64,000 nt of DNA from a virus (IMGVR_UViG_3300017613_002557:26005-90004); one strand, 5' to 3'; counted from the first letter of the stretch, positions 2,326 through 50,171 are shown. Numbers and translations are program-made. Notes: generated by a model from the letters alone, not told the origin.

Positions 2326-2967
2326 ATGAAACCCTACATCAGACAAAAAGTAAAGAGGGCACGAGAGGTGTTTTTGAGTCGGTTCGACATCGAGCTTTCA
2401 ATGAAGATGCACAATCAATTGGTCGGGCAGATTACGAATGGAAACGCTGAACTTGTGGCACATAAAGATAGAAACACCGCCCTGTATAGAATGACGATAC
2501 GTGGGCAAAAGATGGTCGTTGTCTATCATAAAAAGGATCAGTACATTGTGACGGCTCTGTTTGATAAAGAGCAAACCCATACATTAGCCTGGGAATGCGG
2601 GTTTAAATGCGGACTTGCTCGTCAACAGACGAAAAACCCGCACCCAGAAGACACACAGGAATACTGGGAATTTGAACACGGCAGAATTGCCGGTAGAAAC
2701 CGGAGTATTGAGAGCGCGAACATGCCGTCTGCAAAAGAGTACAAAGAAACTCATGGGAAAATCCCGTACGGCACAATTCTTTTGCTGTGTGACGATACCT
2801 ACATTTTTTCTGAGCGTTCTAATGGGTTTGTAGTTACTGGCAGGACGTCAGGAAATAGTGACAAGGGCATCGACTTGCGTCAAAGAGGTGCGCGGGTTGC
2901 AGGAAGATGTTCAGACATAAATACGTGGCTTCGATATGGCTCAATTTTTCCGCTTGAGGAGGTATAG
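2326..2967 (+). CDS. Hypothetical protein
   Basis: ORF with a GGAG RBS before ATG 2326. Confidence 0.6.
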   Translation: MKPYIRQKVKRAREVFLSRFDIELSMKMHNQLVGQITNGNAELVAHKDRNTALYRMTIRGQKMVVVYHKKDQYIVTALFDKEQTHTLAWECGFKCGLARQQTKNPHPEDTQEYWEFEHGRIAGRNRSIESANMPSAKEYKETHGKIPYGTILLLCDDTYIFSERSNGFVVTGRTSGNSDKGIDLRQRGARVAGRCSDINTWLRYGSIFPLEEV

Positions 2968-2968
2968 T

Positions 2969-4729
2969 TTGACTCACAAACGTATTCCTGATACGGTGCT
3001 TACTGAAATCAGACAACAAGCTGACATTGTCGAAGTGATTTCAGAATACGTCGCATTGACGAAGTCCGGGAAAAACTATAAGGGACTGTGCCCATTCCAT
3101 CAGGAAAAAACGCCGTCCTTTGTGGTCAGTCCTGAAAAGAAAATTTTTCACTGTTATGGCTGCGGTGTCGGTGGAAATATCTTCTCTTTTCTTGTAAAGC
3201 ATGAAAAGTGCTCGTTTCCTGAATCTGTCGGTATGTTGGCAAAACGCGCCGGTATCAACATGTCGGACAATACTGACACACAAGGCACACAAGGCACACA
3301 GCAGATTGAACACAAAGATCAACTGTATCGGCTACACAAGGATGTTAGCGAGTATTTCACAACACAACTTGTCAGCAATCATAACGCTACTGAGCGCCTT
3401 CGGCAACGAGAGGTCTGCGCGGCAGCGGCACAGTCATTTTCACTAGGATATGCACTCCCGTCATGGGAGAATATACAGAAACACTTTGCCAGCAAATACC
3501 CGATCGATCTGCTTCTTGAAAGCGGCTTGCTAATACAGCGTAAAAATGGCAATGGATACTATGACCGGTTTCGTGATCGGATCATAATTCCAATCACAGA
3601 TGATCGCGGCCGGGTGATCGCGTTTGGCGGGAGAGCAGTCAATGATGACCTAAAATATGTAAACTCGTCAGAATCACCGATCTTTCAGAAAAACCGGGTA
3701 CTGTTTGGACTCAGTCATGCAAAACAAGCCATTCACCAGCATGGGTATGTCGTAATTGTCGAAGGTTATTTTGACATGATTGTGCCCTTTAGTCTGGGTG
3801 TGCAAAATATCGTTGCCACAATGGGAACGGCATTAACACAGCAGCACTTACGTGTACTTCAGCGGTATACCCGCAATGTTGTTCTGATGTTTGATGGCGA
3901 TCACGCCGGAATCACTGCTGTGCAGCGTTCTCTCGATCTGTTTCTTGAGTCTGGGTTTACTGTGACGGCTGCTGTTCTACCAAAAGATATTGACCCAGAT
4001 AAGATGATTCGAGAAATGGGAGTAGACCAATTTAAGCAATGTATCACACAGGCGCACCCACTGCTCGATTTTATCCGTGGTCATATCATGGCACAATACG
4101 ATCTTTCGCGTACCGATCAACGTGTCGCCTGCGCGAATAAAATCTTGGCGACAATTGTCAAAATTCAAAATATTCCAGAACGCAATACCCAGATCAGTAA
4201 AACTGCCGGGTTGCTCCAAATAACGGATGCGGACAAAGCTCTTCTGGATGAATTTCGTAAAGGGACACGTACCGGCAAGCCACGTGTGACAATTCCGGTA
4301 AAGACAGAGATCGCACTTCCTCCTCTGGAGCGCTTTCTAGTGAAAGCCCTGTTGAAAGACAAACAGCTTATTAAATATGTCAAACATGTTGGGCCAGCTA
4401 CTTTTTCGCACACAATCACACGTAAAGTAATTGAGGTGTTGCTGTTTAACGAAACATCTGAGTGCGAGTCACGTGTTTTAGACCACTTTCACACAGCAGA
4501 CTACCAATCATACCTCACAGAACTGTTTCTGCAAGTAGATGAGGTTGTGGACCCAGAGACGACAGTCAGAGATTGTTTGAACAGACTACAACAACAGACA
4601 GCCAGGAAACGTGCATGTAAGGACACATTGCGGCTGCAAGAACTACAAGAGCAAACAGACAGTGTCGAATTCGCTGCGCTTATCCAGCGCAAAAATAAAC
4701 AACTTCAGGAAAAGCGACATCAAAAATAG
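2969..4729 (+). CDS. dnaG: DNA primase DnaG (CHC2 zinc finger, TOPRIM, C-terminal helical domain)
   Basis: GLCPFHQEKTPSF...HCYGC, YDRFRDRIIIP, AFGGR, KYVNSSE, VEGYFD, FDGDHAG, DPD; TTG start at 2969 after GAGGAGG. Confidence 0.96.
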   Translation: MTHKRIPDTVLTEIRQQADIVEVISEYVALTKSGKNYKGLCPFHQEKTPSFVVSPEKKIFHCYGCGVGGNIFSFLVKHEKCSFPESVGMLAKRAGINMSDNTDTQGTQGTQQIEHKDQLYRLHKDVSEYFTTQLVSNHNATERLRQREVCAAAAQSFSLGYALPSWENIQKHFASKYPIDLLLESGLLIQRKNGNGYYDRFRDRIIIPITDDRGRVIAFGGRAVNDDLKYVNSSESPIFQKNRVLFGLSHAKQAIHQHGYVVIVEGYFDMIVPFSLGVQNIVATMGTALTQQHLRVLQRYTRNVVLMFDGDHAGITAVQRSLDLFLESGFTVTAAVLPKDIDPDKMIREMGVDQFKQCITQAHPLLDFIRGHIMAQYDLSRTDQRVACANKILATIVKIQNIPERNTQISKTAGLLQITDADKALLDEFRKGTRTGKPRVTIPVKTEIALPPLERFLVKALLKDKQLIKYVKHVGPATFSHTITRKVIEVLLFNETSECESRVLDHFHTADYQSYLTELFLQVDEVVDPETTVRDCLNRLQQQTARKRACKDTLRLQELQEQTDSVEFAALIQRKNKQLQEKRHQK

Positions 4730-5180: not shown

Positions 5181-5348
5181 CACTGCCGGTATTTAAATGG
5201 CACACAAGACGTGATTTTTATCACGAGTAAGTCGTGACAATTATATTGTTATACGCCTTGCGGCAGCGCAGTTCCTTGAAAAAAAAGTTTCTCCTTGTTT
5301 TCCTGTTATACAGGCGAAATCAGACACGGGGCAAAAATGTTTCATTTA

Positions 5349-5392
5349 TTTTGTTTAATCTACTTGACAAATTAAACAAAAAGACTTATTGT
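5349..5392 (+). promoter_or_regulatory. Sigma70-type promoter with an inverted-repeat operator around the -35 box
   Basis: TTGACA(5364)-17-TATTGT(5387); TTTTGTTTAAT (5349-5359) / ATTAAACAAAA (5371-5381) flank the -35. Confidence 0.65.
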
Positions 5393-5448
5393 GTATATTA
5401 CAAGACGGAAACAAGGTAAAACAAACAATCAAAACAAGGAGAAAAATC

Positions 5449-5679
5449 ATGAGAGATTACACACAAGAAGAAGCTGACCGGAAAGAATTAGTTGCAATGA
5501 ATCAGGCTATTGAAGACGCCTCGCAAGGTATGAGCTACGAAGAAATGATGAAAGATCCAAAGGTTGTGGTATTAATCCAAAAACGTGATGACTTCAAAGA
5601 ACAAATCGAGGCGATGGCACAGGAAGAACTCGACGAATACAAAAAAGAAAATCCTTTTTTCAGTGAGTTATTAGCATGA
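5449..5679 (+). CDS. Small acidic hypothetical protein (cassette gene)
   Basis: AAGGAG RBS; ATGA overlap with the next gene. Confidence 0.7.
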   Translation: MRDYTQEEADRKELVAMNQAIEDASQGMSYEEMMKDPKVVVLIQKRDDFKEQIEAMAQEELDEYKKENPFFSELLA

Positions 5680-5885
5680 AGAAAGAAACGAGAGGTGGCG
5701 CAGGCAGGAATCAAGGCTTGCGCCCCGGAACCTATAAAAACGCACAGAAGCCGCCGGAATTTAAGCATAGTATCAAAAAGCAAGTAAGCTACACGCCGGA
5801 ACAGTGGCAGCGTGTAGAGGCAAAAATGAAAGAATACGGCATAAAGAAATTTAGCGATTATGCCAGAATGTTAACTTTATCATAG
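5676..5885 (+). CDS. Small basic DNA-binding protein, possibly ribbon-helix-helix
   Basis: N-terminal RGGAGRNQG motif followed by an RHH-like strand-helix-helix (KQVSYTPEQWQRV...FSDYAR). Confidence 0.6.
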   Translation: MKKETRGGAGRNQGLRPGTYKNAQKPPEFKHSIKKQVSYTPEQWQRVEAKMKEYGIKKFSDYARMLTLS

Positions 5886-5889
5886 CGGC

Positions 5890-5951
5890 GCATAACAAAA
5901 AATTGTACGCGACCGGAAAAAGCGCCCGGCGCGTAAATTTCGCCGTTATGC
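5890..5951 (+). mobile_element. Integron attC-like recombination site 1
   Basis: GCATAAC...GTTATGC; inner arms AATT(G)TACGCG(A)CCGG / CCGGCGCGTAAATT pair with two extrahelical bases; 62 bp. Confidence 0.85.
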
Positions 5952-5973
5952 AACTTATGTTTGGAGGTAACGC

Positions 5974-6714
5974 ATGAAAATAGAACAACATATTTTAGAT
6001 ATAATCGAAGAAGGCAAAACAGACGGGAATTTATTTTTTCTGCCAAATCGTCAGCTTGACCGCAAGGTTTACCAGGATGTAAACAAGGTTCTTGGGTGTC
6101 TCGGAGGAAAGTGGAATCGGAAATTTAAGGCCCATGTGTTTGAGTCTGATATTTCAGGCGCTATTGATGATGTACTTTTAACCGGCGAAGTTATTAGCAA
6201 GAAACAAGAGTTTCAGTTTTTTGAAACGCCGGAACCTATTGTCAACCAACTTATCGAATTAGCAGAAATTGAAGTAGGGCATAAATGTCTTGAACCTTCT
6301 GCCGGTCATGGGAATATCGCTGAAGCATTGCGCGAAATTGTTGGCGATAACGTGACGTGTGTTGAAATGATGCCGGAAAATGTTGCTGTCCTTGTAAGCA
6401 AAGGTTTTCAGGTGCATGAAGGTGACTTTTTGCAGTATCTTTCCGGCGTAGGTTATGACAGAATTATCATGAATCCTCCATTCACACGACAACAGGACAT
6501 CGCCCATGTCGAAAAAGCTTTAATGCATCTGAAGGATGGCAGTATTCTTGTTTCTGTGATGTCTGTCGGCGTAACGTTTCGACATGACAAAAAGACAACT
6601 GACTTTTGGTATAAACTTAGTGGATACGATTATGAGATTATTGAGTTGCCAATAGGAGCGTTTAAGGTTTCCGGTACTATGGTCAATGCAATAATCTTGA
6701 AGGTCGTTGCATAA
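5974..6714 (+). CDS. N6-adenine DNA methyltransferase (cassette-borne)
   Basis: FFETP, LEPSAGHGNIA (motif I), IIMNPPF (motif IV); the stop codon lies within the attC R'' box. Confidence 0.88.
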   Translation: MKIEQHILDIIEEGKTDGNLFFLPNRQLDRKVYQDVNKVLGCLGGKWNRKFKAHVFESDISGAIDDVLLTGEVISKKQEFQFFETPEPIVNQLIELAEIEVGHKCLEPSAGHGNIAEALREIVGDNVTCVEMMPENVAVLVSKGFQVHEGDFLQYLSGVGYDRIIMNPPFTRQQDIAHVEKALMHLKDGSILVSVMSVGVTFRHDKKTTDFWYKLSGYDYEIIELPIGAFKVSGTMVNAIILKVVA

Positions 6715-6817
6715 CAACCGCTTGCAGCCAGATTTGACCGCGTGGGTTCAAATCTGGCTGCTAAATTACAAGCTTCGGTGGCGCGTGGGTTCAAACTGCT
6801 GAAGCGGAACGTTAGTA
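6709..6817 (+). mobile_element. Integron attC-like recombination site 2
   Basis: GCATAAC AACCGCTT(G)CAGC...GCTGAAGCGGAAC GTTAGTA, with one extrahelical base and an internal hairpin; 109 bp. Confidence 0.85.
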
Positions 6818-6839
6818 GTGCTTGAGAGGGATAATAATT

Positions 6840-7130
6840 ATGGACGGGAAAGAGATGTGTGCATTATTGAAACAGGAGGCACAAAAAGGAAATATTTGTT
6901 TTTTCGCTACACCTGATGAACTTGTAAAAGTGAACCTTGATGAGTTTATCAGGCAACCAGCAGAAGGTATGCTGTATGATTTGAATAGAAACAAAATCAC
7001 CGTATTACATTTCATCACTCAAGGGAACATGAAATGGGTGAATAATTATGCAGTGGCATTAGTGATAGAAAAATTAAGAGAGGTTGTTGGCCGTACTGCT
7101 AACAAAACATTGGAAACGACACAGGGCTGA
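6840..7130 (+). CDS. Hypothetical protein (cassette gene)
   Basis: Starts 23 nt after attC2 with a GAGGG RBS; reads through an attC-like half-site. Confidence 0.7.
   Translation: MDGKEMCALLKQEAQKGNICFFATPDELVKVNLDEFIRQPAEGMLYDLNRNKITVLHFITQGNMKWVNNYAVALVIEKLREVVGRTANKTLETTQG
7097..7120 (+). mobile_element. Left half of a degenerate attC-like site 3
   Basis: TGCTAAC AAAACATTGGAAACGAC has the R''/L'' pattern; no matching right arm nearby, but a complementary GTTAGCA occurs at 7404-7410. Confidence 0.5.
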
Positions 7131-7189
7131 GCGGTGAACTTGCGGAAGCATTTAAAAATTAGATCCTCTGTTGAGCCGCCTTTTAAAAT

Positions 7190-7408
7190 ATGAAATATTT
7201 TTCTGATGATGAAATGTTGAAGAAAAGTCAGTTTTTTGCTTTTGCCTGCATTGGTGGGATGAAAGAAGGTTTTGACTATTCAGAGACGAAGGCGCTTTGT
7301 AAATATTGGGGCGAACAACGGCGAAAAAATCACTATCATGGTGGGTTTTTTAAGGAAGTTTCAGGTCAGCAGGCGTTGCGTCTACAGCGCCAGACTAGCA
7401 AAAGTTAG
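7190..7408 (+). CDS. Hypothetical protein
   Basis: 72-aa ORF, weak RBS. Confidence 0.35.
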   Translation: MKYFSDDEMLKKSQFFAFACIGGMKEGFDYSETKALCKYWGEQRRKNHYHGGFFKEVSGQQALRLQRQTSKS

Positions 7409-7451
7409 CAAATGACTGCTGTGACGCGCATCGCTTGAGAGGTGAAATAGC

Positions 7452-7835
7452 ATGAATTGGAATACACATTTTTACTTGTATGCAAAAGGCCACTATCAGA
7501 AAACTGACCTGATTGAGGATCTCAAGAAGGTTTTTGCAAAACGTTCAGCGGTTCCATTAGAGTGTTGTCAGCCAAGGGATGTGGCAATAGCATTGCTTGA
7601 ATTAGCATGGAAGCACATTGCTGAAAGTGGGAATCCTGAATATCAATTTATTGAATTTATCAGCAGGCTCAGCCCCGTTGATATATTTGGACAAGAGCGT
7701 TGGTCTGGGGGTGATGGTTTCTGGAAAGTTTTGTTGAATGATTGCCTGCCTGTGCTACGGAATACGAAAGTGGCAGGTTTGGATTTAGGGGAAGCTGATC
7801 CGAAAGTGCTGCCGTTAAGATCGCCAAAGCATTAA
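7452..7835 (+). CDS. Hypothetical protein
   Basis: GAGGTG RBS, 127 aa. Confidence 0.7.
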   Translation: MNWNTHFYLYAKGHYQKTDLIEDLKKVFAKRSAVPLECCQPRDVAIALLELAWKHIAESGNPEYQFIEFISRLSPVDIFGQERWSGGDGFWKVLLNDCLPVLRNTKVAGLDLGEADPKVLPLRSPKH

Positions 7836-7944
7836 GAAAGGATATTGATATGTCAAAACATAGAGCACTTGACGTATAGACGAAAAAAGCCTCGACGTTT
7901 TTATGGGCAAGTCAAACGGGAGATTCTGCGCATAGCACAAAACA

Positions 7945-8367
7945 ATGCACAAAACACGTATTTCAATCAATGATACCCCACCAATAGCAATGCTGCGAAG
8001 CTGTCTTGCCGTTGCGTATGATCGGGTCATCCCCTCTGATTACATCGGTGATGCAGAACGAGAAGAGGGCTATTTTGAAGGTCGTTTTGTTGCTATTGCG
8101 GCCCTGCCTATTTCACATCGTTTGTGCTTCCTCGTGCGTCTCGCCGGCGAACGCTACGCTCAGATTTATACCAACTGTAACGCGCCAAAAATCTTTAAGA
8201 CAAAATACTATTGTGTGGACGAGTGGCACGATGGAATTGGGAAGATTGATGCATCCAGGGCATTTTCGACCAAGAAAACCGCCCTGGAATATGGGCATGA
8301 GGTGCTTAAAGGGACTGAAATCTTAAATGATCTCGAACATTACGAGATCACCATTCTTTTTTCATGA
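7945..8367 (+). CDS. Hypothetical protein
   Basis: 140-aa ORF converging on the minus-strand operon. Confidence 0.55.
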   Translation: MHKTRISINDTPPIAMLRSCLAVAYDRVIPSDYIGDAEREEGYFEGRFVAIAALPISHRLCFLVRLAGERYAQIYTNCNAPKIFKTKYYCVDEWHDGIGKIDASRAFSTKKTALEYGHEVLKGTEILNDLEHYEITILFS

Positions 8368-10823: not shown

Positions 10824-11246
10824 TTATCCCTCACTTGCAGCGACAACTTCAGCTTTGAATTCATTAAACGTCCTGTCTGCTCTATACGTCGGATTCGCTT
10901 TGATGATTTCAGCCGCTATCGGTAATAAATCGGCTGCTTCCATGTCAGCATACATGGCTCGCTGTGCCGCTGTCATTGGAATATCGTTCATCAGGTATTG
11001 GTAAAGCGTGGTTCTCCATGTTGATTGCGGAATAGTTGGCGTCTCAAGAACAAGACTGAGTCCTTTGGCTTCGAGTGCAAGTGCGACACGTTTAACAAGA
11101 CGCGAGTATACTGGCTTATATCCATACATTATGAACACAATGAGGATATTTCCCCACTGCTCGATCAGCTTTGCAAAATTGTCCATTAAGTTAGCTTTTG
11201 TGACGACAATCGGTGTCGAAATTATTGGCTTTGTAAAAAGTCCCAT
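10824..11246 (-). CDS. Hypothetical protein
   Basis: GAGG RBS, within an operon. Confidence 0.65.
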   Translation of the reverse strand: MGLFTKPIISTPIVVTKANLMDNFAKLIEQWGNILIVFIMYGYKPVYSRLVKRVALALEAKGLSLVLETPTIPQSTWRTTLYQYLMNDIPMTAAQRAMYADMEAADLLPIAAEIIKANPTYRADRTFNEFKAEVVAASEG

Positions 11247-14894: not shown

Positions 14895-16352
14895 ATGAAA
14901 GAAAATATCCATCGATTGATTTTTCAATCATTAGGTCAAAAGAAACGCCATGAGCCACAAATTGTGACTGCCTTTCTTGCTGACTTATCATCTCGTGGAA
15001 TCACAGAGAACCTTGAGGAGATTAAATGCGCTTTTGTTGAAGCATTGGCATCTTTCGATGCTCTCGGTTTCGAGGCATCTGTTGAAGAGACAGATAATGA
15101 CAAAATGGATCCGGTTTCAAAGATCAAGGCGGCGGTCGTGGCATACCTCGCTGCAAAAAAAACACCGGCAGCATCCATCTTACCGCCAATTGAGTTCCCT
15201 GCTTTGATGGACACAGAGGCGTTAAATGCGGTAGTTGATACGCTGAAAGAAAAAATACATGCATCAGACGAGTATGTCACAGCATTAAAAACCGCTATTG
15301 AGAATCTTGACACGTTTACGGTCAAAGAACTCGATGCGATCTGTTTTACCCCGAAGGCACTTTTGACGCACATCTCAACAAGTGAGATTATCAATCTGTC
15401 GGAAAACCATGAGGGGATTGCTGAAGACGTACTTCTGCACGCATTAGAACCGCTGTTTGAAAAAACAATCGCAGCGTATGTAAGTGCTGGATTTGAAGTA
15501 CAGGACGGAAAAATCAGGAAAACAGGCGGTGACGTGGATGAATGGATCGTTCCAACTGTTCTCACCGACACACAGGAGAAGAATACCGATACCGAAGAAG
15601 TCACGTTGTCACATGACGCTTGGATCTTTTTTGATAAAACGTTTCTCTCAGAGGCCATGCGTGTTGAGGTGATCGAAGGGCTTGCGGCATACAATACGAT
15701 ACATCCGGACGCCAGAATCTCAGAGGGCACTGTCGTTCAGACGATCAAAGCAGTCCTGTCAAAAGTGCCGATCATGAAAGTCAAACAGTTGGACAGCGCG
15801 GTCTGCACAAAAGTGTCGTCATTCAACGCGATTGATGCCGATCTGTTCGCAGGATCTCTGTCAGCACTTGCCGAATACACACAGAAACAGGTGGCCCTGT
15901 TGTTAGAGCAGTGCGTTCAGGATGCGGTCAACCTCAGTGTGCTGATTGCACAACAAGCAGGCTTAACTTACGACACAACAACCGGCACGTTTTTGAAGGA
16001 TGATGAGGTACAAGAGCCACAAACCTCAATGTCACTGACATTTCTGAGCCGACCACAGAAATACATCAGTGAAATGCACCTGATGTATCTCAAGGACGTT
16101 GCCCTGGAAATGGTGTGGAACGCACTTGGAGAGCAATGGAAAGAACATCTCCAGCAAGGTGAAGCCGAAGAGATGATGTTTTCGCTCGATCAAATGCTGC
16201 TCGATGCATACGCCACCTTACTTGAGACAACAGGGATCGTTTCAAGAAAGGATCTTCATAAAAGCATCGACGTACATTTAGACGCACTGAGCAAGAAACT
16301 GCCAGAAGGATCCCATAAAAAGATGTTCGCACTCATTACATCGGTGCTGTAG
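14895..16352 (+). CDS. Hypothetical acidic helical protein
   Basis: 485-aa ORF with a GGGGGA RBS. Confidence 0.75.
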   Translation: MKENIHRLIFQSLGQKKRHEPQIVTAFLADLSSRGITENLEEIKCAFVEALASFDALGFEASVEETDNDKMDPVSKIKAAVVAYLAAKKTPAASILPPIEFPALMDTEALNAVVDTLKEKIHASDEYVTALKTAIENLDTFTVKELDAICFTPKALLTHISTSEIINLSENHEGIAEDVLLHALEPLFEKTIAAYVSAGFEVQDGKIRKTGGDVDEWIVPTVLTDTQEKNTDTEEVTLSHDAWIFFDKTFLSEAMRVEVIEGLAAYNTIHPDARISEGTVVQTIKAVLSKVPIMKVKQLDSAVCTKVSSFNAIDADLFAGSLSALAEYTQKQVALLLEQCVQDAVNLSVLIAQQAGLTYDTTTGTFLKDDEVQEPQTSMSLTFLSRPQKYISEMHLMYLKDVALEMVWNALGEQWKEHLQQGEAEEMMFSLDQMLLDAYATLLETTGIVSRKDLHKSIDVHLDALSKKLPEGSHKKMFALITSVL

Positions 16353-16365
16353 TCTTTTCTGTCTG

Positions 16366-16390
16366 TGGCGCACGACAGTGTCGTGCGCCA
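16366..16390 (+). terminator. Perfect hairpin, probable terminator
   Basis: TGGCGCACGACA-G-TGTCGTGCGCCA, followed by pyrimidine-rich sequence. Confidence 0.55.
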
Positions 16391-16474
16391 TCCTCGTCCA
16401 TTTTCGTCTTTTATTCTCCCTATCTACCGCTATATCTATATTTTTATCTTTTTAAGAAAAAATGTACTTTTTTC

Positions 16475-16503
16475 TTGACAAAGCCTTTTTTCTTTGCTAG
16501 ACT
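16475..16503 (+). promoter_or_regulatory. Sigma70-type promoter
   Basis: TTGACA-17-TAGACT with an extended TG; inverted repeat CTTTGCTA...TAGCAAAG overlaps the -10/+1 region. Confidence 0.7.
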
Positions 16504-16572
16504 CTCCTTGTTAGCAAAGAATAATAAGGGTAAATTTGTTTTCTAGCAAACCCAAAAAAGGAGGATGCAAAT

Positions 16573-17133
16573 ATGATCGAGCTTATGAGAACTCCGCAAC
16601 CATTACAGCAAATTCGAGAAAAAAAGCAGCGTAGACTCTCCGAGGATGCAAAGACGGTTTCTCTCTGTAGACCGCTTGTAAATACTTCTGTTGGAGGAAG
16701 AACAATCAGCGCAAACGATGTTGTGGCAGTAGAACGTGACGGAACCGGGGACCAGACGTTTTTTCTGCTGGAATCCTCTGAGCTTCGGCTACAAAACGAT
16801 GGGCTACTTTATTATATCACTTCAAACTGGTCATACAGAGAGGCTGAGCCTTGCCTTGAACGCTGCTATTGGGAACTGTCTACAATTGACGACTTTGCGG
16901 TGGATCAGGACGAAATGGATGATCAATGTGTCGTTGTGATTCAACACACGCTTGAAGATCCACTGAAAGAAGAGGCCCCATATTTGAAACTTGAATACGC
17001 ACAAAGAGATATTGAACCAATCGTCTTTTCATGTGCCCATGATGCCGAAGAGTGGATCCAAGAATACTTACATGACTACGGACGCATTCGTGGAGAACAC
17101 AGCGATCCAAGATGCGCGGTGTGGCCAGTGTAA
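16573..17133 (+). CDS. Hypothetical protein
   Basis: AAGGAGG RBS. Confidence 0.75.
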   Translation: MIELMRTPQPLQQIREKKQRRLSEDAKTVSLCRPLVNTSVGGRTISANDVVAVERDGTGDQTFFLLESSELRLQNDGLLYYITSNWSYREAEPCLERCYWELSTIDDFAVDQDEMDDQCVVVIQHTLEDPLKEEAPYLKLEYAQRDIEPIVFSCAHDAEEWIQEYLHDYGRIRGEHSDPRCAVWPV

Positions 17134-17157
17134 CTCTCAGGAAAGAGAAAAACAACA

Positions 17158-17322
17158 ATGTCAAAAGGAATAAGGAACGATGAAGAACGCAGGATGTGAG
17201 TACTAAACGATGAGTACCTGTACAACATGTTCTGTGCATCGAAACATACAAGTGAAATGGCGTTTGTGCGAAACAACAGAAAGCTCATCGACAATTATAT
17301 TGATGGCGTGCTTACTCGATAG
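17158..17322 (+). pseudogene. Small phage gene interrupted by an in-frame TGA (17197-17199)
   Basis: Reads MSKGIRNDEERRM*VLNDEYLYNMF...LTR* in one frame. Confidence 0.55.
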
Positions 17323-17354
17323 GTTGCGCCGGAACACACCCAAAAGGAAACATT

Positions 17355-17507
17355 ATGAAAAAACAATTCAGTAGAAGAAAGACGACACGCAAACAAAAAA
17401 CCATCCTCAATGAATTCGGCGCCGATAAGAAGAAAAAGGGACGTCGCAAGGGGGCATCACAGACGACAGAGAAATTGCTCAAAACTGTCGAACAACAGAC
17501 GACGTAA
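17355..17507 (+). CDS. Small basic protein, 50 aa (not in ORF track)
   Basis: AAGGA RBS; MKKQFSRRKTTRKQK...; the next gene's RBS overlaps its stop. Confidence 0.6.
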   Translation: MKKQFSRRKTTRKQKTILNEFGADKKKKGRRKGASQTTEKLLKTVEQQTT

Positions 17508-17515
17508 AGGAGTTT

Positions 17516-18124
17516 ATGGATACCTATTTACTTGAGCTGTTTTGCGCCAATACGAGAGTCCAGCATACGACAACAGCACTTGAAGGCGTATATGCCGTAG
17601 GAGACAGCAAGTTTTTTCGGGAGTTTAGCGGGAAAACACGCGGGGCCTGTTACGATCTGGCTGAGGCGAACAAGTGGAAGATCAGCCGACTGTTCAAAAT
17701 CGGGGTGTGCCCCGTGTGCAGATCACATGGAATATATCCCTATACCATCGTCATACAGCGCATCCTCGGAATCGTTGATGTTATGACGAGCATCGTCTTT
17801 ACATCGCCAACCACACAGACGTCCAGAAAACCACATCTTATAACGGATGAACAGGAGATTATGCGGTATCTGCTTTCTCAGGATGAACTGACAATTCCTG
17901 TGGTCCTTTGCCTGCCAGATCACACTTCGGCCCAGTCTATAACAGCTATCCTGCTGATGGCCGATTCTGACACGGCGGTCAAAAGCGATAGAATGATCGG
18001 CACGACAGGGCTGTGCTTCCAGTGCGAAGTCGAACGATCACAAGTTGCACAGTTCGCACATGTTCTGTGCAAAATGAACGGTGGGATCTATGTGGACAAC
18101 CTGCACCACGTGAACTATTTTTAA
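17516..18124 (+). CDS. Hypothetical protein
   Basis: AAGGAG RBS; CPVC motif. Confidence 0.7.
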   Translation: MDTYLLELFCANTRVQHTTTALEGVYAVGDSKFFREFSGKTRGACYDLAEANKWKISRLFKIGVCPVCRSHGIYPYTIVIQRILGIVDVMTSIVFTSPTTQTSRKPHLITDEQEIMRYLLSQDELTIPVVLCLPDHTSAQSITAILLMADSDTAVKSDRMIGTTGLCFQCEVERSQVAQFAHVLCKMNGGIYVDNLHHVNYF

Positions 18125-18136
18125 GAGGAGAATACT

Positions 18137-18733
18137 ATGATAACACACGGATTTTTCATCTGCCGAAATGACGATCCAAGCGTCGTGATCGACGGACCAT
18201 ATAAATTTGCCAGTGCAGCGGCAAATGTGATCGCCGCACAATATAGTGGTACAGTTTATGGAACTGCATCACGGTACGGACTCCGCGCACCATATCCGTT
18301 GACAGAAGTTGGCGATGACAAGCTTAAACAGGTACTCGCACAGAACTTAGGCGTAATTGTCACGGATAAATTCAATCATCCAAACTATTTTGGCGTGCCG
18401 AATATGGCAAGTCGATATAGCATGTTGGGACTCTATAACATCGGGCTGTATCTCGGTATAGAACAAGACCTTCTGAAAACTATCGTGGATCAGGACGCAA
18501 TTGATGAAATGAAACGTACCGCAAACCCTGTGACATTCGACATGTTTTTCGCCCTCTGCGTACCACCGGATGATGCACATGAAACACGGAATATCTATGG
18601 TGCTGATAAAGAATGCACGTGTATCAGCACGTTACAGACACTTCACACAAACATTTTGTCAGTGGCCTATGCCAGTCTAAATGAACAGACACTCTTCTGG
18701 ACACTGCACAGATCATGGGAGAATTTAGCATGA
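18137..18733 (+). CDS. Hypothetical protein
   Basis: GAGGAG RBS. Confidence 0.7.
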   Translation: MITHGFFICRNDDPSVVIDGPYKFASAAANVIAAQYSGTVYGTASRYGLRAPYPLTEVGDDKLKQVLAQNLGVIVTDKFNHPNYFGVPNMASRYSMLGLYNIGLYLGIEQDLLKTIVDQDAIDEMKRTANPVTFDMFFALCVPPDDAHETRNIYGADKECTCISTLQTLHTNILSVAYASLNEQTLFWTLHRSWENLA

Positions 18734-19203
18734 AGGTACTCAGTGTTAATCAACCGTATGCCTGGCTGCTGTTTTACCCGCTAGATCGATGTAAAACCGT
18801 CGAAAACCGGCCTTGGAACACGGACTATCGAGGCCCGCTGTTGATTCATGCCGGAAAGGTGCCGAATGTCGATTTTTCAACAGATCGATGTACAATAGAT
18901 CTTGCGCGGCTCGAACAATACCTGTCAACCAAACAGATCAGCGTGCAGGAGCTTGAACGATGGGTGGTCGCTCACGGACGCGCAAGCGTGCAGGATATTT
19001 TTCTGTACGGCGGCATCATCGGGATTGTGACATTGCGCGATGTCGGACACGATCCGAAAAACGTCTGGGCGCTCCCGAATCTCCTGCAATGGCAACTTAG
19101 AAATCCGGTCCCGCTGCCATTCACACGATGCAGCGGACGATACGGACTCTTTGATGTCACGCTGCCACGGCGCGTGATGGATATTATCAACACATATAGG
19201 TGA
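18730..19203 (+). CDS. ASCH domain protein
   Basis: MKVLSVNQPYAWL...KTVENRPWNTDYRGPLLIHAGK...GIIGIV...G-x-x-GLF. Confidence 0.9.
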   Translation: MKVLSVNQPYAWLLFYPLDRCKTVENRPWNTDYRGPLLIHAGKVPNVDFSTDRCTIDLARLEQYLSTKQISVQELERWVVAHGRASVQDIFLYGGIIGIVTLRDVGHDPKNVWALPNLLQWQLRNPVPLPFTRCSGRYGLFDVTLPRRVMDIINTYR

Positions 19204-19207
19204 ATTT

Positions 19208-19576
19208 ATGGAAACACGCCATTTTAACGTATATCTTGGGACATCTCATAAAGACGACATTACCAGCGCTATACACACAATTGCCGATCACTGGGCAATG
19301 CTCGGAATGAAAAAAATCAGACTCTTTCCATGCTGTCAGCGAATGCGGCTCTTTCTGGTAATTACTGCGAACGGATGGGGTCGCCTGGATATTCTGGATC
19401 TTGAGAATATCTTTACTACCGGGTGCATGCGGCAAAAAAGACAATATACGTATCCGAATCCGCAAAAACGCTATACCGGAGAGTGGTACACATACACCAC
19501 ACCACAAACACTGCGACATACCACCTGCTTTGAGGATACACCACGACATAAAAGTAAAGCAATATGGAGCAAATAA
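19208..19576 (+). CDS. Hypothetical protein
   Basis: AGGTG RBS, within an operon. Confidence 0.5.
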   Translation: METRHFNVYLGTSHKDDITSAIHTIADHWAMLGMKKIRLFPCCQRMRLFLVITANGWGRLDILDLENIFTTGCMRQKRQYTYPNPQKRYTGEWYTYTTPQTLRHTTCFEDTPRHKSKAIWSK

Positions 19577-46044: not shown

Positions 46045-46917
46045 ATGCCCCTATTATCGAAACATTGGCGATGCATTTTCCATAATAGTATGCAGCAAGT
46101 CGTATGTAAAAGTCAAGTTCACCCCCTTTTTTTGAATGAGCGTTTCAGGTATGATGAGTTGTATATTGCGAACTTCTTTTTTAATCGCAACATGCGCCTG
46201 ATAATGGATGAGTTGCCGTGGGGCATGCGTGTTCGTGAACGCATGATCATCCGGTCAGCGCGGACTTCAAAAATGTATGCTCATCAAACACGTGAAGCCT
46301 TGCAATTGCTGCGTGGATTGGACGCAATACAAGGGGAATACGTCGAAGAGTGGCATATTGCCTGGACGTTTGATGAAATTTTTTCACGGCAACACCGTAT
46401 TAGTGAAAAGTATTTACGGAGGTTTTACAACCGCGCTACGCGGCGAACGTTTTTTGACCTCGCGTATGAGCTTGAGTCCCAAGAAGAGCTCGAGGATCGG
46501 GTAAGGTTTCGAGAAACGCTTGCCATGCGTTCAACCAAGTTTATCGCCTCATTTCCGCAAAGATCAGATATTTCAGCCTACATGAGTAAGCTTCACGAGC
46601 CGACAAAGCACCGCTATCTCACCTATACCGCTACGCCGTTCATTCCATCTTCACGTGTTATTCGTCTTTATCTTTCTATTCTGGCAACGGTATTTCATGT
46701 CCGTGGGATTACGCTGGAGGTATTATACGAGCAAGAGATTCCATTTACGCCGTTTTCTCTTTTTGGAATAGGGTTGGATGATTTTTCAGAACTAACAAAA
46801 CATCTTCCTGGGATTGTCCATGATCATGGTGTCGTTTGGATAGTTGACTTTTATTATGGGGATGTATATAATTTTGTCAAAACGTCACTCAATCAGATTA
46901 AAAGGAGAAAGCTATGA
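46045..46917 (+). CDS. Hypothetical protein (start uncertain)
   Basis: Long ORF with an ATGA overlap to the next gene. Confidence 0.6.
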   Translation: MPLLSKHWRCIFHNSMQQVVCKSQVHPLFLNERFRYDELYIANFFFNRNMRLIMDELPWGMRVRERMIIRSARTSKMYAHQTREALQLLRGLDAIQGEYVEEWHIAWTFDEIFSRQHRISEKYLRRFYNRATRRTFFDLAYELESQEELEDRVRFRETLAMRSTKFIASFPQRSDISAYMSKLHEPTKHRYLTYTATPFIPSSRVIRLYLSILATVFHVRGITLEVLYEQEIPFTPFSLFGIGLDDFSELTKHLPGIVHDHGVVWIVDFYYGDVYNFVKTSLNQIKRRKL

Positions 46918-47501
46918 AATCACAAACAAAGTCACTTGCTAGAACGCTTCCGTTATGGGTTGGCAGTGGCACAGTGAAAGAAAAAGAAAAGCTGATTTTG
47001 GCATCATGCATGGAGCGCATTCGTCAAATTCCTGTTGATGATGATGTATGTCAACAGGTCGAAGAGGTGTTGACTTCGTTGTTTGGCCTTAATAAAGAGG
47101 ATGATGTGTCGCCACCAGATGAGACAGACGATACAGTCCTTGAAGATAAAACTGTCCCGGATAAAGCGGGTGCAGATGATGATGACTTGTCTGTCATTTC
47201 TGACGGATCTATCCAGCAGTATGTTAAGGCGATCATGGATCGCATCAGAGAAGTCTTAGCGTGGAAAGTTCTTGATGATATAGACTCGCTGGTGTCAATC
47301 GTTTTGACGGTGGCCCTTGAGTCCGCAAAAGACCAAGGTGCGTTCGACGTTGATGTCATTATGGGCTATATTTCCAAAGGTTTTGATGAGATTGCGTCGA
47401 TGCCTGATGCACCAGTGATAGGAGACCTAGATGTGCTTTTATTTGTAATCAAAGGATCCTTGCAAAAGATTGCGGCTGTCCTTAATGTGGTCCAGGAATA
47501 G
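46914..47501 (+). CDS. Hypothetical acidic protein
   Basis: AAGGAG RBS. Confidence 0.7.
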   Translation: MKSQTKSLARTLPLWVGSGTVKEKEKLILASCMERIRQIPVDDDVCQQVEEVLTSLFGLNKEDDVSPPDETDDTVLEDKTVPDKAGADDDDLSVISDGSIQQYVKAIMDRIREVLAWKVLDDIDSLVSIVLTVALESAKDQGAFDVDVIMGYISKGFDEIASMPDAPVIGDLDVLLFVIKGSLQKIAAVLNVVQE

Positions 47502-47510
47502 GGGGATATT

Positions 47511-48206
47511 ATGCCATTAACTAACGTTCCATTTGGGATTCCAGGCCCATTAAAAAGTATTACGTTGGCGTGGTCATTTGAAGAAAGGCGGATCAAGATG
47601 TGTGATGGAACTTACATCTTATATCTTGATGGTGCCCAAACATCCACGTTGGAGCGCGACATCTATAATGCATATGGGATCGAGTGTAATGCTGGCGGGG
47701 TATCTGAGGCGGTAACTGGCATCACTCTGAATGAGTCCGAGGAAATCGCCGGTCAGCATAAGGTTGCGCGTAGCCCGAATACGACACCTGCCGAAGATCG
47801 TCTTGTAAAGACTGATTACATGATGATTGTGGGATTGTCACGCACGCTGTCAATCAATGGAATGGGCGCGTTGCCGACTGACTTTGAAGATACTGACATT
47901 GGTCGTATTGTCGGCGTGTTGACGTTTTCAACACGGTATGGAACCTTTGATATTGAGACTGGCACATTGACAGTCTTGCGTGATGTATCTGAAGTACGAC
48001 AACTTACAGAGTTTCACACGTACACGCTTGCTATGGAAGAGTACCAGGACACCAGCGATTCAGATGCTCAGGACCATATGATCACACTTGATGCAGAGCT
48101 TGAGGCATATACCGAAACGTTTCATACCAGGGCACGCAGTTATGCCATGTCTCAAGATGCTGTACCGACAGATACGACGACCATTGTCAACTTCTTAGAC
48201 GACTAG
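47511..48206 (+). CDS. Acidic Thr-rich protein, possible tail tube
   Basis: Composition and size only. Confidence 0.45.
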   Translation: MPLTNVPFGIPGPLKSITLAWSFEERRIKMCDGTYILYLDGAQTSTLERDIYNAYGIECNAGGVSEAVTGITLNESEEIAGQHKVARSPNTTPAEDRLVKTDYMMIVGLSRTLSINGMGALPTDFEDTDIGRIVGVLTFSTRYGTFDIETGTLTVLRDVSEVRQLTEFHTYTLAMEEYQDTSDSDAQDHMITLDAELEAYTETFHTRARSYAMSQDAVPTDTTTIVNFLDD

Positions 48207-48210
48207 AGCT

Positions 48211-48528
48211 ATGCTTACAAAAATAGTCCGCGTGTTCGGGGCTGTGCAGATACACGCTCGTACACCGTTAAACAATGGGTACGAGCGTATCCAATCATTA
48301 GGCTTTATTCAAAGAAAAGTGGTCAGTCTTGATCTGGCGAATGATTCTGAGGTTAGAGGAATTATTCTTGATGAATTTCCAGCCAGAGGTGAGGGAGATT
48401 TTTGTCTGGATGGAGATCCGTCTTATGCGGATTTTGTCAACAAGACCTTTGAACATCAGAATATTGTATTGACCGGTAGCCGCCGCATCCCGGAGTATGA
48501 ATCCGGCTATTTTGAATGTCACACCTAA
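48211..48528 (+). CDS. Hypothetical protein
   Basis: Within an operon. Confidence 0.55.
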   Translation: MLTKIVRVFGAVQIHARTPLNNGYERIQSLGFIQRKVVSLDLANDSEVRGIILDEFPARGEGDFCLDGDPSYADFVNKTFEHQNIVLTGSRRIPEYESGYFECHT

Positions 48529-48571: not shown

Positions 48572-49138
48572 ATGAAATTTGTTCCATCGCGAATTGCTGC
48601 TGCGATTCTTGGTGTTCACAGAAACACGTTGCGGAATTGGGCCAATAACGGGACGATTAATTATGTCCGGACGCCTGGAAATCACCGGCTATATGATGTG
48701 CACTCGGTGTGTCATGCCACGCAAAAAGAATCGTTTTGCTATTGTCGGATAAGTTCTGAAACCTACAATGAACTTCTGCTGCTTCAAACAGAGTACATGT
48801 CTGCTCATTATCCTGAGCATACACTTATCACAGATATTGGGAACGGGTTGTTGTTTAACAGAGAGGGCTTACAGACGATTTTAATGGCGGCGTTATGCGG
48901 GTCTGTTGACGAGGTGGTTGTAATGCACAGGGATCGGCTATCGCTTGTTGCATTTCAGCTTATCGAGTGGATAGTCAAAGAATGTGGTGGACGTATTTCA
49001 GTCATTCGTAGTGGTTCGTTATTATCAACACGTGAGTTTTTGGATGATTTGTTATTATGCTGTAAGTTGGCACAAAGACATACGCCGATACTACAACATA
49101 TAGTGACAAGCGTTCATAAAACACTACATGAGGTATGA
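48572..49138 (+). CDS. IS607-family TnpA-like serine recombinase (MerR-type HTH + resolvase), solitary
   Basis: AAAILGVHRNTLRNW...RTPGNHRLYD; YCRISS; TDIGNG; HRDRL; no tnpB next to it. Confidence 0.85.
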   Translation: MKFVPSRIAAAILGVHRNTLRNWANNGTINYVRTPGNHRLYDVHSVCHATQKESFCYCRISSETYNELLLLQTEYMSAHYPEHTLITDIGNGLLFNREGLQTILMAALCGSVDEVVVMHRDRLSLVAFQLIEWIVKECGGRISVIRSGSLLSTREFLDDLLLCCKLAQRHTPILQHIVTSVHKTLHEV

Positions 49139-50171
49139 TATGCTTTTAACAGAAGAACAGCTTGCAACACTGACAGATGGCAGTGATGTACTTGCTGACG
49201 AGATGATCCGGCATGATGCACGTCCGATTCTTCTTTTTCAGTCAGTAGTTGAACGGGTAGCGGATCCGGATTCTGGCGAAATTGTTGAGCATGATTCCGG
49301 TCTTCAATTGACAAAAAACTACATCACATCTCCGAAAATTAGAGAGTCGGTTGCGCTGCAAACACATCTTGAGAAAGTGCTTGAATTGATCAGCCCAAAG
49401 CGCCAATGTTCATGTGTGGCTGAAAAGGAGAGGCTGGAACGTATGCTGTACGGTGACGGGAATATTCCGCCGTTATCACTTGGCATTGAAGAGATGCAGC
49501 GTGGGGTAGAGGAAGGGAAGTTTAATCTTACAAATCTGTTGAAGATTTCAGGTCTGCAGCCTTCTGATGATGTCGATCAGATGATTAATGATCGGCTTGC
49601 TGAACTTCAGAAATATGCAGGATTATCTGGCTTGGCATATGTAGCACTTGATAAGAAGCTACAGGAAGAGGTTGTCGGTCTGGTTGACTTTAAGGACGCA
49701 TACACGAATCAGCAGCGTGTGATAGGAAGTCATGAGCTTCAAATTCCTGAATTTACCCGGCGTTTAGGAGACGCTAAAAAGACGTTGGATAAGTGGCCGA
49801 AGAATAATCCGATTGAGCTAACAACATCTGAAGTGGTCACGTGTGGACGTTGCAAGCGTACCGTTCCTGTGCCATTATCGATTGTTTATGCTGATGACAC
49901 AACCCTTGATCCGATTTCGCAGATTATTTTTGAGCGCCCCTGGACAGAGATGCGTGAAATTTTGCCGATGACGCAAATAAAAGTGCTGTTGACTGCTGTT
50001 TACGTGTGGGCCTTCAAGCCGCTGGAGGATGTCACAAACCCTTTCGCCCGAAACATGAGGGAAATTATGGGCGTCGTGGAGGGCAGGGTTCCGAAGAATC
50101 GGAGATGGCTTCGGTACATCATGGAGCACAGACAAATCGAGGCATCAAGAGACGAGACAGCGCCGTCTTAA
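49128..50171 (+). CDS. Hypothetical protein, possible tail assembly chaperone
   Basis: 347 aa; followed by an overlapping -1-frame ORF. Confidence 0.65.
   Translation: MRYDMLLTEEQLATLTDGSDVLADEMIRHDARPILLFQSVVERVADPDSGEIVEHDSGLQLTKNYITSPKIRESVALQTHLEKVLELISPKRQCSCVAEKERLERMLYGDGNIPPLSLGIEEMQRGVEEGKFNLTNLLKISGLQPSDDVDQMINDRLAELQKYAGLSGLAYVALDKKLQEEVVGLVDFKDAYTNQQRVIGSHELQIPEFTRRLGDAKKTLDKWPKNNPIELTTSEVVTCGRCKRTVPVPLSIVYADDTTLDPISQIIFERPWTEMREILPMTQIKVLLTAVYVWAFKPLEDVTNPFARNMREIMGVVEGRVPKNRRWLRYIMEHRQIEASRDETAPS

What the first reader, a model, noticed from the sequence alone, without database searches (positions are those of the whole stretch)
5248..7410. Integron-like attC gene-cassette array carried by a phage, with no integrase in view
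Seen: two complete attC-like sites (5890-5951, 6709-6817) with R''/R' boxes and extrahelical bases, plus a half-site at 7097. Each unit's 5' end complements its own 3' R'' flank: GTTATACGCC(5248) vs GGCGCATAAC (9/10), GTTATGCAAC(5945) vs GTTGCATAAC (10/10), GTTAGTAGTGC(6811) vs GTACTGCTAAC (9/11). Known: this is the footprint of cassettes that inserted as circles by IntI-type recombination. Inference: the phage gains or shuffles accessory genes using a host or distant integrase, or maintains its own cassette pool, since the cargo looks phage-like.
Basis: partly seen in the sequence, partly recalled or inferred. Interest (0 to 1): 0.85.

Follow-up and report, generated by a model that had tools for sequence, protein, structure and literature searches.

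The report
Integron gene cassettes in a phage
This 90-kb tailed phage carries real integron-type gene cassettes, one encoding a DNA methyltransferase, at two sites that each start with the same roughly 40-base docking sequence, yet it encodes no integrase, so it probably depends on a host enzyme to load accessory genes.

Summary
A covariance model built only from 57 attC sites next to IntI genes in 20 bacterial genomes gives, as its five best hits in 91 kb, the two window sites, a third site 11 kb upstream in the same phage, and two sites on an unrelated 1-kb metagenome contig. It finds nothing in 1.08 Mb of unrelated viral DNA. All five sites share the geometry that is modal in bacterial arrays: AAC, then 8 nt, then an extrahelical base. 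Here that base is G on the top strand, a minority variant (15 of 74).

The cassette ends obey the integron chain rule: each R' matches the next cassette's R''. The 7097 half-site is a real R''-L'' half of a decayed attC.

Both phage arrays and the metagenome contig begin with the same 37-bp leader ending at the GTT crossover, and their cargo is unrelated. The 90-kb record (about 70% complete) has no tyrosine recombinase.

Best reading: integron-type cassettes inserted at an attI-like docking site by an IntI-type enzyme supplied in trans.

attC clusters in phages are already published (Qi et al. 2023), and this scan has reported integrase-less phage platforms on other DNA. The new element is the multi-copy docking leader. 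An unrelated complete phage (G406) shows the same design.

The parts
5205..5252 (+). Conserved leader (attI-like docking site). It holds the inverted repeat TTATCAC-N9-GTGACAA, then TWATATT, and ends in GTTAT. The inferred crossover is G|TT at 5248|5249. It also matches a sigma-70-like promoter (TTATCA-18-TATATT).
   Evidence: The block 5216-5252 has 30 of 37 positions invariant across three copies: window, genome 20206-20242 and metagenome contig L170 12-48. The two inner pairs of the inverted repeat covary (AA/TT versus GA/TC). Only two copies exist in the 90 kb. Promoter-like match 9/12.
5249..5945 (+). Cassette W-c1. It has its own promoter-like site (5364-5392) and two small ORFs: 5449-5679 (76 aa) and 5676-5885 (69 aa, weak ribbon-helix-helix NikA-like match). 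It ends in attC W1.
   Evidence: The 5' end GTTATACGCC matches the reverse complement of its own R'' flank GGCGCATAAC at 9/10. ORFs; Pfam; promoter scan 10/12.
5890..5951 (+). attC W1 (62 nt): R'' GCATAAC, 8 nt, extrahelical G, L'' TACGCG-A-CCGG, L', spacer, R' GTTATGC.
   Evidence: Bacterial attC model R1: 40.0 bits, E 9e-8, full-length alignment. Hairpin fold.
5946..6811 (+). Cassette W-c2: an N6-adenine-type DNA methyltransferase (5974-6714, 246 aa, NPPF motif). Its stop codon TAA lies inside R''.
   Evidence: The 5' end GTTATGCAAC matches the reverse complement of its own R'' flank GTTGCATAAC at 10/10. Pfam MTS and PHROG DNA methyltransferase families.
6709..6817 (+). attC W2 (109 nt): R'' GCATAAC, AACCGCTT, extrahelical G, CAGC ... 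GCTG-AAGCGG, AAC, chimeric R' GTTAGTA. The long variable part holds a 16-bp hairpin and a 13-nt direct repeat (6740-6752, 6783-6795).
   Evidence: Model R1: 23.2 bits, E 0.0018. R' matches its own hairpin partner at only 4/7 but the next R'' (7101-7107) at 6/7.
6812..7122 (+). Cassette W-c3: ORF 6840-7130 (96 aa, no family) with a truncated attC. R'' TGCTAAC (7101-7107), the spacer AAAACATT and the G are kept; L' and R' are missing.
   Evidence: The 5' end GTTAGTAGTGC matches the reverse complement of GTACTGCTAAC at 9/11. No fold (z +0.7) and no model hit.

Best explanation
These are genuine integron-type gene cassettes. Each unit is one or two ORFs plus an attC site that folds, as single-stranded DNA, into the R-box / spacer / L-box hairpin with extrahelical bases recognised by integron integrases. 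The units entered as circles by recombination at G|TT. The entry point is a conserved roughly 40-bp leader present twice in this phage, which acts like an attI docking site and probably also supplies a promoter. The phage record encodes no tyrosine recombinase. The enzyme is therefore most likely the host's integron integrase acting in trans during infection or carriage, or a gene in the missing ~30% of the genome. Some attC sites have decayed, which fixes those cassettes in place. At least one cargo gene, an orphan DNA methyltransferase, would protect phage DNA from host restriction. Shown: site architecture, model hits, chimeric junctions, leader conservation with unrelated cargo, and absence of an integrase in the record. 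Inferred: the enzyme, the trans action, the leader's role and current mobility.
For: (1) Model R1 was built only from 57 attC sites of 20 IntI-adjacent bacterial arrays. Its five best hits in 91 kb are W1, W2, A1 (L003 3585-3714 = genome 20584-20713), M1 and M2 (L170). All are on the + strand and full length. The next hit has E 0.26. There were 0 hits in 1.08 Mb of unrelated viral DNA. (2) An unbiased geometry scan of the bacterial arrays gave AAC+8 nt+bulge as the mode: top-strand C 50, G 15, T 5, A 4. All five phage or contig sites are AAC+8+G. (3) Chain rule: in bacterial arrays R'(n) equals the complement of R''(n+1) at 4/4 variable positions in 42 of 76 consecutive pairs, against 10 of 76 for the same hairpin. 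Here W2 to W3 is 6/7 versus 4/7, M1 to M2 is 7/7 versus 4/7, and cassette 5' ends match their own R'' flank at 9/10, 10/10, 9/11 and 10/10. (4) The same leader heads three arrays whose cargo is entirely different. Only two copies exist in the genome, and both are followed by cassettes. (5) No IntI or tyrosine recombinase was found. (6) An unrelated complete phage (G406: direct terminal repeats, 100% complete) has 12 model hits in four clusters, a conserved 15-nt leader before GTT at each array head, and no tyrosine recombinase. (7) Phage attC sites recombine with IntI1 experimentally (Qi et al. 2023, PMC9892861).
Against: No recombination event was observed. No close relatives of the phage were found, so there is no presence/absence polymorphism at the same locus. 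No sequencing run could be listed for junction reads. The host and its integron are unidentified. The leader was not found beside any intI in the genomes searched. The extrahelical base is G, not the usual C, on the top strand. Two of the sites are truncated, which also fits a fossil array. The training sites for R1 were picked with a structural scanner of my own, so the model is not fully independent of my definition of the architecture. E-values are rough because calibration was short.
Confidence: 0.7

Rival explanations
1. Fossil capture. Fragments of a host chromosomal integron array were picked up by illegitimate or homologous recombination and are now inert passengers. The phage has no cassette system.
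For: There is no integrase in the record. Two truncated attC sites are present: window 7097-7122, and R'' only at genome 20385-20397. Qi et al. 2023 describe integron fragments in Vibrio phages.
Against: Random capture does not explain why the same 37-bp leader sits exactly at the first G|TT boundary at two loci of this phage and on a third contig with different cassettes. It also does not explain why the complete phage G406 shows four arrays, each behind a shared leader. The methyltransferase cargo belongs to a phage gene family.
Confidence: 0.15
2. The leader is not a dedicated attI. It is a phage promoter/operator that happens to be a good secondary target for a host IntI, like the GWT 'attG' genome sites of Loot et al. 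Cassettes landed there by chance and were kept because they are expressed.
For: IntI1-3 insert cassettes at double-stranded genome sites with only a GWT consensus (bioRxiv 10.1101/2022.09.11.507474). The leader matches a sigma-70 promoter at 9/12 and carries an operator-like inverted repeat.
Against: All three known copies are followed by cassettes, and no cassette-free copy exists in the 90 kb. Multi-cassette arrays at one site imply repeated use.
Confidence: 0.1
3. A phage-encoded, non-IntI recombinase runs the system. It could be a small Xer-like tyrosine recombinase in the missing ~30% of the genome, as earlier notes of this scan report for Bacteroidota phages, or the HTH-resolvase at 48572-49138.
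For: The record is only ~70% complete. A small serine recombinase with an N-terminal MerR-type HTH is present. Earlier scan notes describe phage cassette systems with Xer-like enzymes (not checked here).
Against: The sites have the exact IntI-type attC geometry and sequence consensus of bacterial integrons. Serine recombinases act on double-stranded sites, not folded hairpins. G406 is complete and has no tyrosine recombinase.
Confidence: 0.05

Closest known systems
Clusters of attC sites lacking an integron integrase (CALIN) in phage genomes (Qi, Rajabal, Ghaly, Tetu, Gillings 2023, Front Microbiol, PMC9892861)
   Same: attC-bounded cassettes lie in one orientation inside tailed-phage genomes without intI. 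DNA methyltransferases are among the cargo. Phage attC sites were shown to be substrates of IntI1.
   Different: Here, and in G406, each array starts at a conserved leader present in several copies per genome. This points to dedicated docking sites, not stray attC clusters. The section of that paper I read (3.4) describes no attI-like leader at these integrase-less clusters. Nothing has been tested experimentally here.
Classical integrons (intI, attI, Pc, attC cassettes), chromosomal or mobile
   Same: Same attC geometry (AAC + 8 nt + extrahelical base), R''/R' cores, chimeric R' junctions, cassette sizes of 0.4-0.9 kb, stop codons in or beside R'', and an array head that ends in GTT with a promoter-like element.
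   Different: There is no intI next to the array head or anywhere in the record. There are two array heads per genome. The extrahelical base is G on the top strand in 5 of 5 sites, against 15 of 74 in the reference arrays. The carrier is a phage.
attG route: IntI-mediated cassette insertion at genome sites outside integrons (Loot et al., bioRxiv 10.1101/2022.09.11.507474)
   Same: Cassettes sit outside an integron platform, inserted at a GTT in double-stranded DNA, and are expressed from a nearby promoter.
   Different: attG sites share only GWT. Here about 37 bp are conserved between copies, and the site has been used repeatedly (2-3 cassettes).
Phage morons
   Same: Small accessory genes are inserted between conserved phage genes. 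Cassette W-c1 has its own promoter-like site.
   Different: Morons are not bounded by attC hairpins and show no circular-permutation footprint.

Membership tests
Integron attC recombination site | Inverse core R'' (RYYYAAC) and core R' (GTTRRRY), complementary, 50-150 nt apart | tested here: met
   GCATAAC/GTTATGC (W1), GCATAAC/GTTAGTA (W2), GCATAAC/GTTATGA (A1). GCATAAC departs from RYYY at one position, but the same core occurs in IntI-adjacent bacterial arrays.
Integron attC recombination site | Second inverted repeat L''/L' separated from R by an unpaired spacer, with an extrahelical base at a fixed place on the R''-L'' arm | tested here: met
   All five sites are AAC + 8 nt + bulged G followed by a paired L box. 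AAC+8 is the mode in 20 bacterial arrays. Base identity is the minority G (15/74), not C (50/74).
Integron attC recombination site | Detected by an attC covariance model | tested here: met
   Own model R1, built from 57 bacterial attC sites, scores 40.0, 23.2, 22.0, 21.9 and 18.3 bits and finds nothing in 1.08 Mb of control DNA. IntegronFinder's own model was not available.
Integron attC recombination site | Chimeric R': the bases after G|TT belong to the next cassette and match that cassette's own R'' | tested here: met
   Cassette 5' ends match their own R'' flank at 9/10, 10/10, 9/11 and 10/10. W2 and M1 R' match their own hairpin partner at only 4/7. The same rule was measured in bacterial arrays.
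Integron attC recombination site | Recombined by an integron integrase as a folded bottom strand | not testable with these tools
   This needs the attC x attI conjugation assay.
Complete integron | intI gene (tyrosine recombinase with the IntI-specific insertion) adjacent to the array | tested here: not met
   No TIGR02249 or PF00589 match in 90,004 bp. IntI HMM best E 0.12. The record is ~70% complete.
Complete integron | attI site at the array head, next to intI, specific to the cognate integrase | tested here: inconclusive
   A conserved leader ends at the first G|TT in three arrays. It is not next to an intI, and it was not found beside intI in the genomes searched.
CALIN (at least two attC sites, no integrase nearby) | Two or more attC sites within 4 kb, in the same orientation, with no intI | tested here: met
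   W1 and W2 are 758 nt apart on the + strand with no intI. The upstream locus has a single complete attC.
Phage cassette systems run by Xer-like recombinases (earlier notes of this scan) | A small Xer-like tyrosine recombinase beside arrays of homogeneous hairpin sites | tested here: not met
   No tyrosine recombinase in the record. The sites differ in sequence and length (62-130 nt), as in classical attC sites.

The most novel reading that the evidence does not exclude
Some phages keep several copies of a short attI-like docking site, with a built-in promoter, but no integrase. They would then use the host's integron integrase to load cassettes from a shared pool, including anti-restriction methyltransferases: an integrase-less, parasitic integron platform. 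The extrahelical-base identity is uniform within each phage (G here in 5 of 5 sites, T in G406 in 10 of 13) and differs from the C-dominant reference arrays. This suggests each phage is tuned to one host integron lineage.
Probability: 0.4. Interest if true: 0.8.

Novelty: new variant of a known kind. Interest (0 to 1): 0.6.

Why it matters
Integrons are usually treated as bacterial gene-capture devices. If phages carry docking sites that recruit the host integrase, cassette pools are shared between bacteria and their viruses. Phages could then pick up counter-defence genes such as methyltransferases one cassette at a time, and could move cassettes between hosts. The leader also gives a concrete, testable candidate for an attI that works without a linked integrase. 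The methyltransferase exists both as a cassette here and as an ordinary phage gene elsewhere, which bears on the open question of how cassettes originate.

Tried and rejected
- **Rfam:** a scan of both loci gave no family at E<=1.
- **Leader elsewhere:** a 19-mer search in IMG/VR gave five chance hits inside coding regions. A relaxed leader pattern gave none. The metagenome scan gave one true hit, L170.
- **Close relatives of the phage:** primase and terminase searches in IMG/VR found none.
- **Tools:** No sequencing run was listed, so read mapping was not possible.
- **First integron flanks fetched:** two MAGs with intI had no usable arrays.
- **Leader in bacteria:** a search of 401 bacterial genomes gave chance-level hits only, none at an intI.
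- **Methyltransferase relatives:** the closest ones (L231, L232) are not cassette-borne.
- **Terminator or promoter reading of the hairpins:** the scans were at background level.
- **Y1 HUH transposase:** none found.
- **My first crude R''/R' scanner:** it was not specific and was replaced.

Full report
**Context.** The window is bases 26005-90004 of a 90,004-bp IMG/VR virus record, linear and about 70% complete by CheckV. It is a tailed phage. It encodes a large terminase, portal, major head protein, head protease, helicase and a DnaG-type primase. A RecA-like protein and an exonuclease lie upstream. The finding sits in the plus-strand replication module, about 500 bp downstream of the primase.

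**Checking the observation.** Site 5890-5951 folds into a two-stem hairpin with an unpaired spacer and bulged bases. Site 6709-6817 has the same outer architecture around a long inner hairpin. The 7097 element keeps R'', the 8-nt spacer and the G at the extrahelical position, but has no partner arm and no significant fold.

A third site lies outside the window at genome 20584-20713. This upstream locus and the window locus both begin with the same sequence: TTTTATCAC-N9-GTGACAAT-W-ATATTGTTAT. Identity ends just after GTTAT, where cassette sequence starts. The inner two pairs of the inverted repeat covary between the two copies.

A metagenome scan for the leader returned one 1,054-bp contig, L170. 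It has the leader at 12-48, followed by two different cassettes with attC-like sites at 329-456 and 944-1039. In the three-way alignment 30 of the 37 leader positions are invariant. Only two leader copies exist in the 90 kb. No cargo protein is shared among the three arrays.

**Independent test of attC identity.**
- I located IntI genes above the NCBIfam cut-off in 156 of 401 bacterial genomes and fetched 12 kb on the cassette side of 20 of them.
- I scanned these for R''...R' pairs with an L-box stem carrying one bulged base. The distance from AAC to the bulge was allowed to vary from 4 to 12 nt, and any base was accepted.
- Hits were strongly oriented: 141 forward against 46 reverse. The mode was a distance of 8 nt, with top-strand C (50), G (15), T (5) and A (4).
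- All five phage or contig sites have exactly AAC + 8 nt + G. They also share the flanking consensus seen in the bacterial sites: AA after AAC, T before the bulge, and ...GA about seven bases later.
- I aligned 57 of the bacterial sites and checked the helices, which showed covariation well above the shuffled and slid controls. I then built model R1.

Searched with filters off over the whole phage plus L170 (91 kb, both strands), R1's five best hits were:

| Site | Location | Bits | E-value |
|---|---|---|---|
| W1 | window 5890-5951 | 40.0 | 9e-8 |
| W2 | window 6709-6817 | 23.2 | 0.0018 |
| A1 | genome 20584-20713 | 22.0 | 0.0034 |
| M1 | L170 329-456 | 21.9 | 0.0038 |
| M2 | L170 944-1039 | 18.3 | 0.03 |

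The next hit was 14.7 bits, E 0.26. In 1.08 Mb of 70 unrelated viral stretches there was no hit at E<=10. A combined 1.17-Mb search returned only the same five.

Caveats: the training sites were chosen with my own structural scanner, and the calibration is short, so E-values are rough.

**Footprint of circular insertion.** In the bacterial arrays the four variable bases of R'(n) match the complement of R''(n+1) perfectly in 42 of 76 consecutive pairs. They match their own hairpin partner perfectly in only 10 of 76. The phage arrays behave the same way:
- W2's R' GTTAGTA fits its own R'' at 4/7, but fits the next R'' (7101-7107) at 6/7.
- M1's R' fits its own partner at 4/7 and M2's R'' at 7/7, extending to 10/10.
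- Cassette 5' ends match their own R'' flanks at 9/10, 10/10, 9/11 and 10/10.

This is what recombination at G|TT of a circular cassette produces.

**No recombinase of the right kind.** The whole record has no match to the integron-integrase model or to the tyrosine-recombinase domain. An HMM built from 30 IntI proteins and run without filters on all 774 ORFs gave nothing better than E 0.12. There is no Y1 transposase. The only recombinase is a 188-aa protein with a MerR-type HTH and a resolvase domain at 48572-49138. That is a serine enzyme and an unlikely actor on folded hairpins.

**Cargo.**
- W-c1 has its own promoter-like site and two small ORFs, one a weak ribbon-helix-helix match.
- W-c2 is a 246-aa N6-adenine-type DNA methyltransferase.
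- The remaining cargo ORFs have no family.
- The methyltransferase has many 67-87% identical relatives in metagenomes. Its closest IMG/VR relatives (68-69%) are ordinary phage genes without attC. So the cassette carries a phage-type gene.

**An independent parallel.** One more distant methyltransferase relative lies in IMGVR_UViG_3300033145_000424 (G406). This is a complete 48.5-kb phage with direct terminal repeats. R1 finds 12 sites there at 19-37 bits in four clusters. The record has no tyrosine recombinase. Each array head carries a conserved 15-nt leader immediately before the GTT, in two variants with two copies each. Its extrahelical base is mostly T (10 of 13 sites). So a second, unrelated and complete phage shows the same design: multi-copy docking leaders, canonical attC cassettes and no integrase.

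**Comparison with what is known.** Qi et al. 2023 (PMC9892861) reported 17 attC clusters lacking an integrase in phages, including virulent ones. They found five methyltransferase cassettes and showed that five phage attC sites recombine with IntI1. The basic phenomenon is therefore published. Loot et al. showed that IntI can insert cassettes at GWT genome sites, which gives a rival reading of the leader.

This scan has also reported integron-like cassette platforms in phages on other DNA. One was an integrase-less platform in a planctomycete phage, and several were run by Xer-like enzymes. I did not check those notes. First-reader notes on this same genome had already seen the second locus and the twin leader, and my analysis confirms both.

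**Verdict.** The arrays are integron-type cassettes, and the window array formally qualifies as a CALIN. The added element is the conserved, multi-copy attI-like leader. What remains inferred is the enzyme (most likely a host IntI in trans), the leader's docking role, and whether the cassettes still move. The host is unidentified; the primase's closest named relatives are candidate division KSB3 at 49-50% identity.

Noticed in passing
L274 / G406 (IMGVR_UViG_3300033145_000424), sites at 6192-8187, 11156-11240, 16114-19256 (- strand) and 46096-48254 (+ strand): This is a complete 48.5-kb phage with direct terminal repeats. It has 12 hits of the bacterial attC model (19-37 bits) in four clusters and no tyrosine recombinase. 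Each array head carries a conserved 15-nt leader directly before GTT (two variants, two copies each). The top-strand extrahelical base is mostly T.
   Followed up: partly
outside the window: genome 20238-20397 (L003 3239-3398): A 160-nt element without an ORF sits directly after the upstream leader. It is closed by a ~20-bp stem made of GTTATGCGTCTAC...GTAGACGCATAAC. It folds far better than shuffles (z -5.4 on + and -6.6 on -) and has no Rfam match. It could be a structured RNA cassette or a cassette whose attC was truncated after R''.
   Followed up: partly
window 48572-49138 (+): A 188-aa protein with an N-terminal MerR-type HTH and a resolvase catalytic domain, an IS607 TnpA-like architecture. 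The adjacent 347-aa ORF (49128-50171) has no Pfam match.
   Followed up: partly
window 6740-6752 and 6783-6795: A 13-nt direct repeat GCGTGGGTTCAAA lies inside the variable part of attC W2, next to a 16-bp hairpin (6724-6761). It suggests an internal duplication. The motif resembles a tRNA T-arm.
   Followed up: no
window 2936-4729 (+): The phage primase is a full bacterial-type DnaG. Its best named homologues (49-50% identity) are from candidate division KSB3 (Vecturithrix and relatives), on contigs up to 10 Mb. This is a host lead.
   Followed up: partly
window 5974-6714 (+): The methyltransferase family has dozens of 67-87% identical members on 1-2 kb metagenome contigs. Such short contigs would fit poorly assembling cassette arrays, but their context could not be fetched.
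   Followed up: no
reference arrays L207-L226, this phage, G406: The identity of the extrahelical base looks lineage-specific. On the top strand it is C-dominant in the 20 reference arrays, G in 5 of 5 sites here, and T in 10 of 13 sites in G406.
   Followed up: partly
window 6819-6828 and 7432-7441: The same 10-mer GCTTGAGAGG precedes the start codons of the ORFs at 6840 and 7452. At 7405 a GTTAGCA is the exact complement of the half-site core TGCTAAC (7101-7107). This may be a remnant of a further cassette boundary.
   Followed up: no
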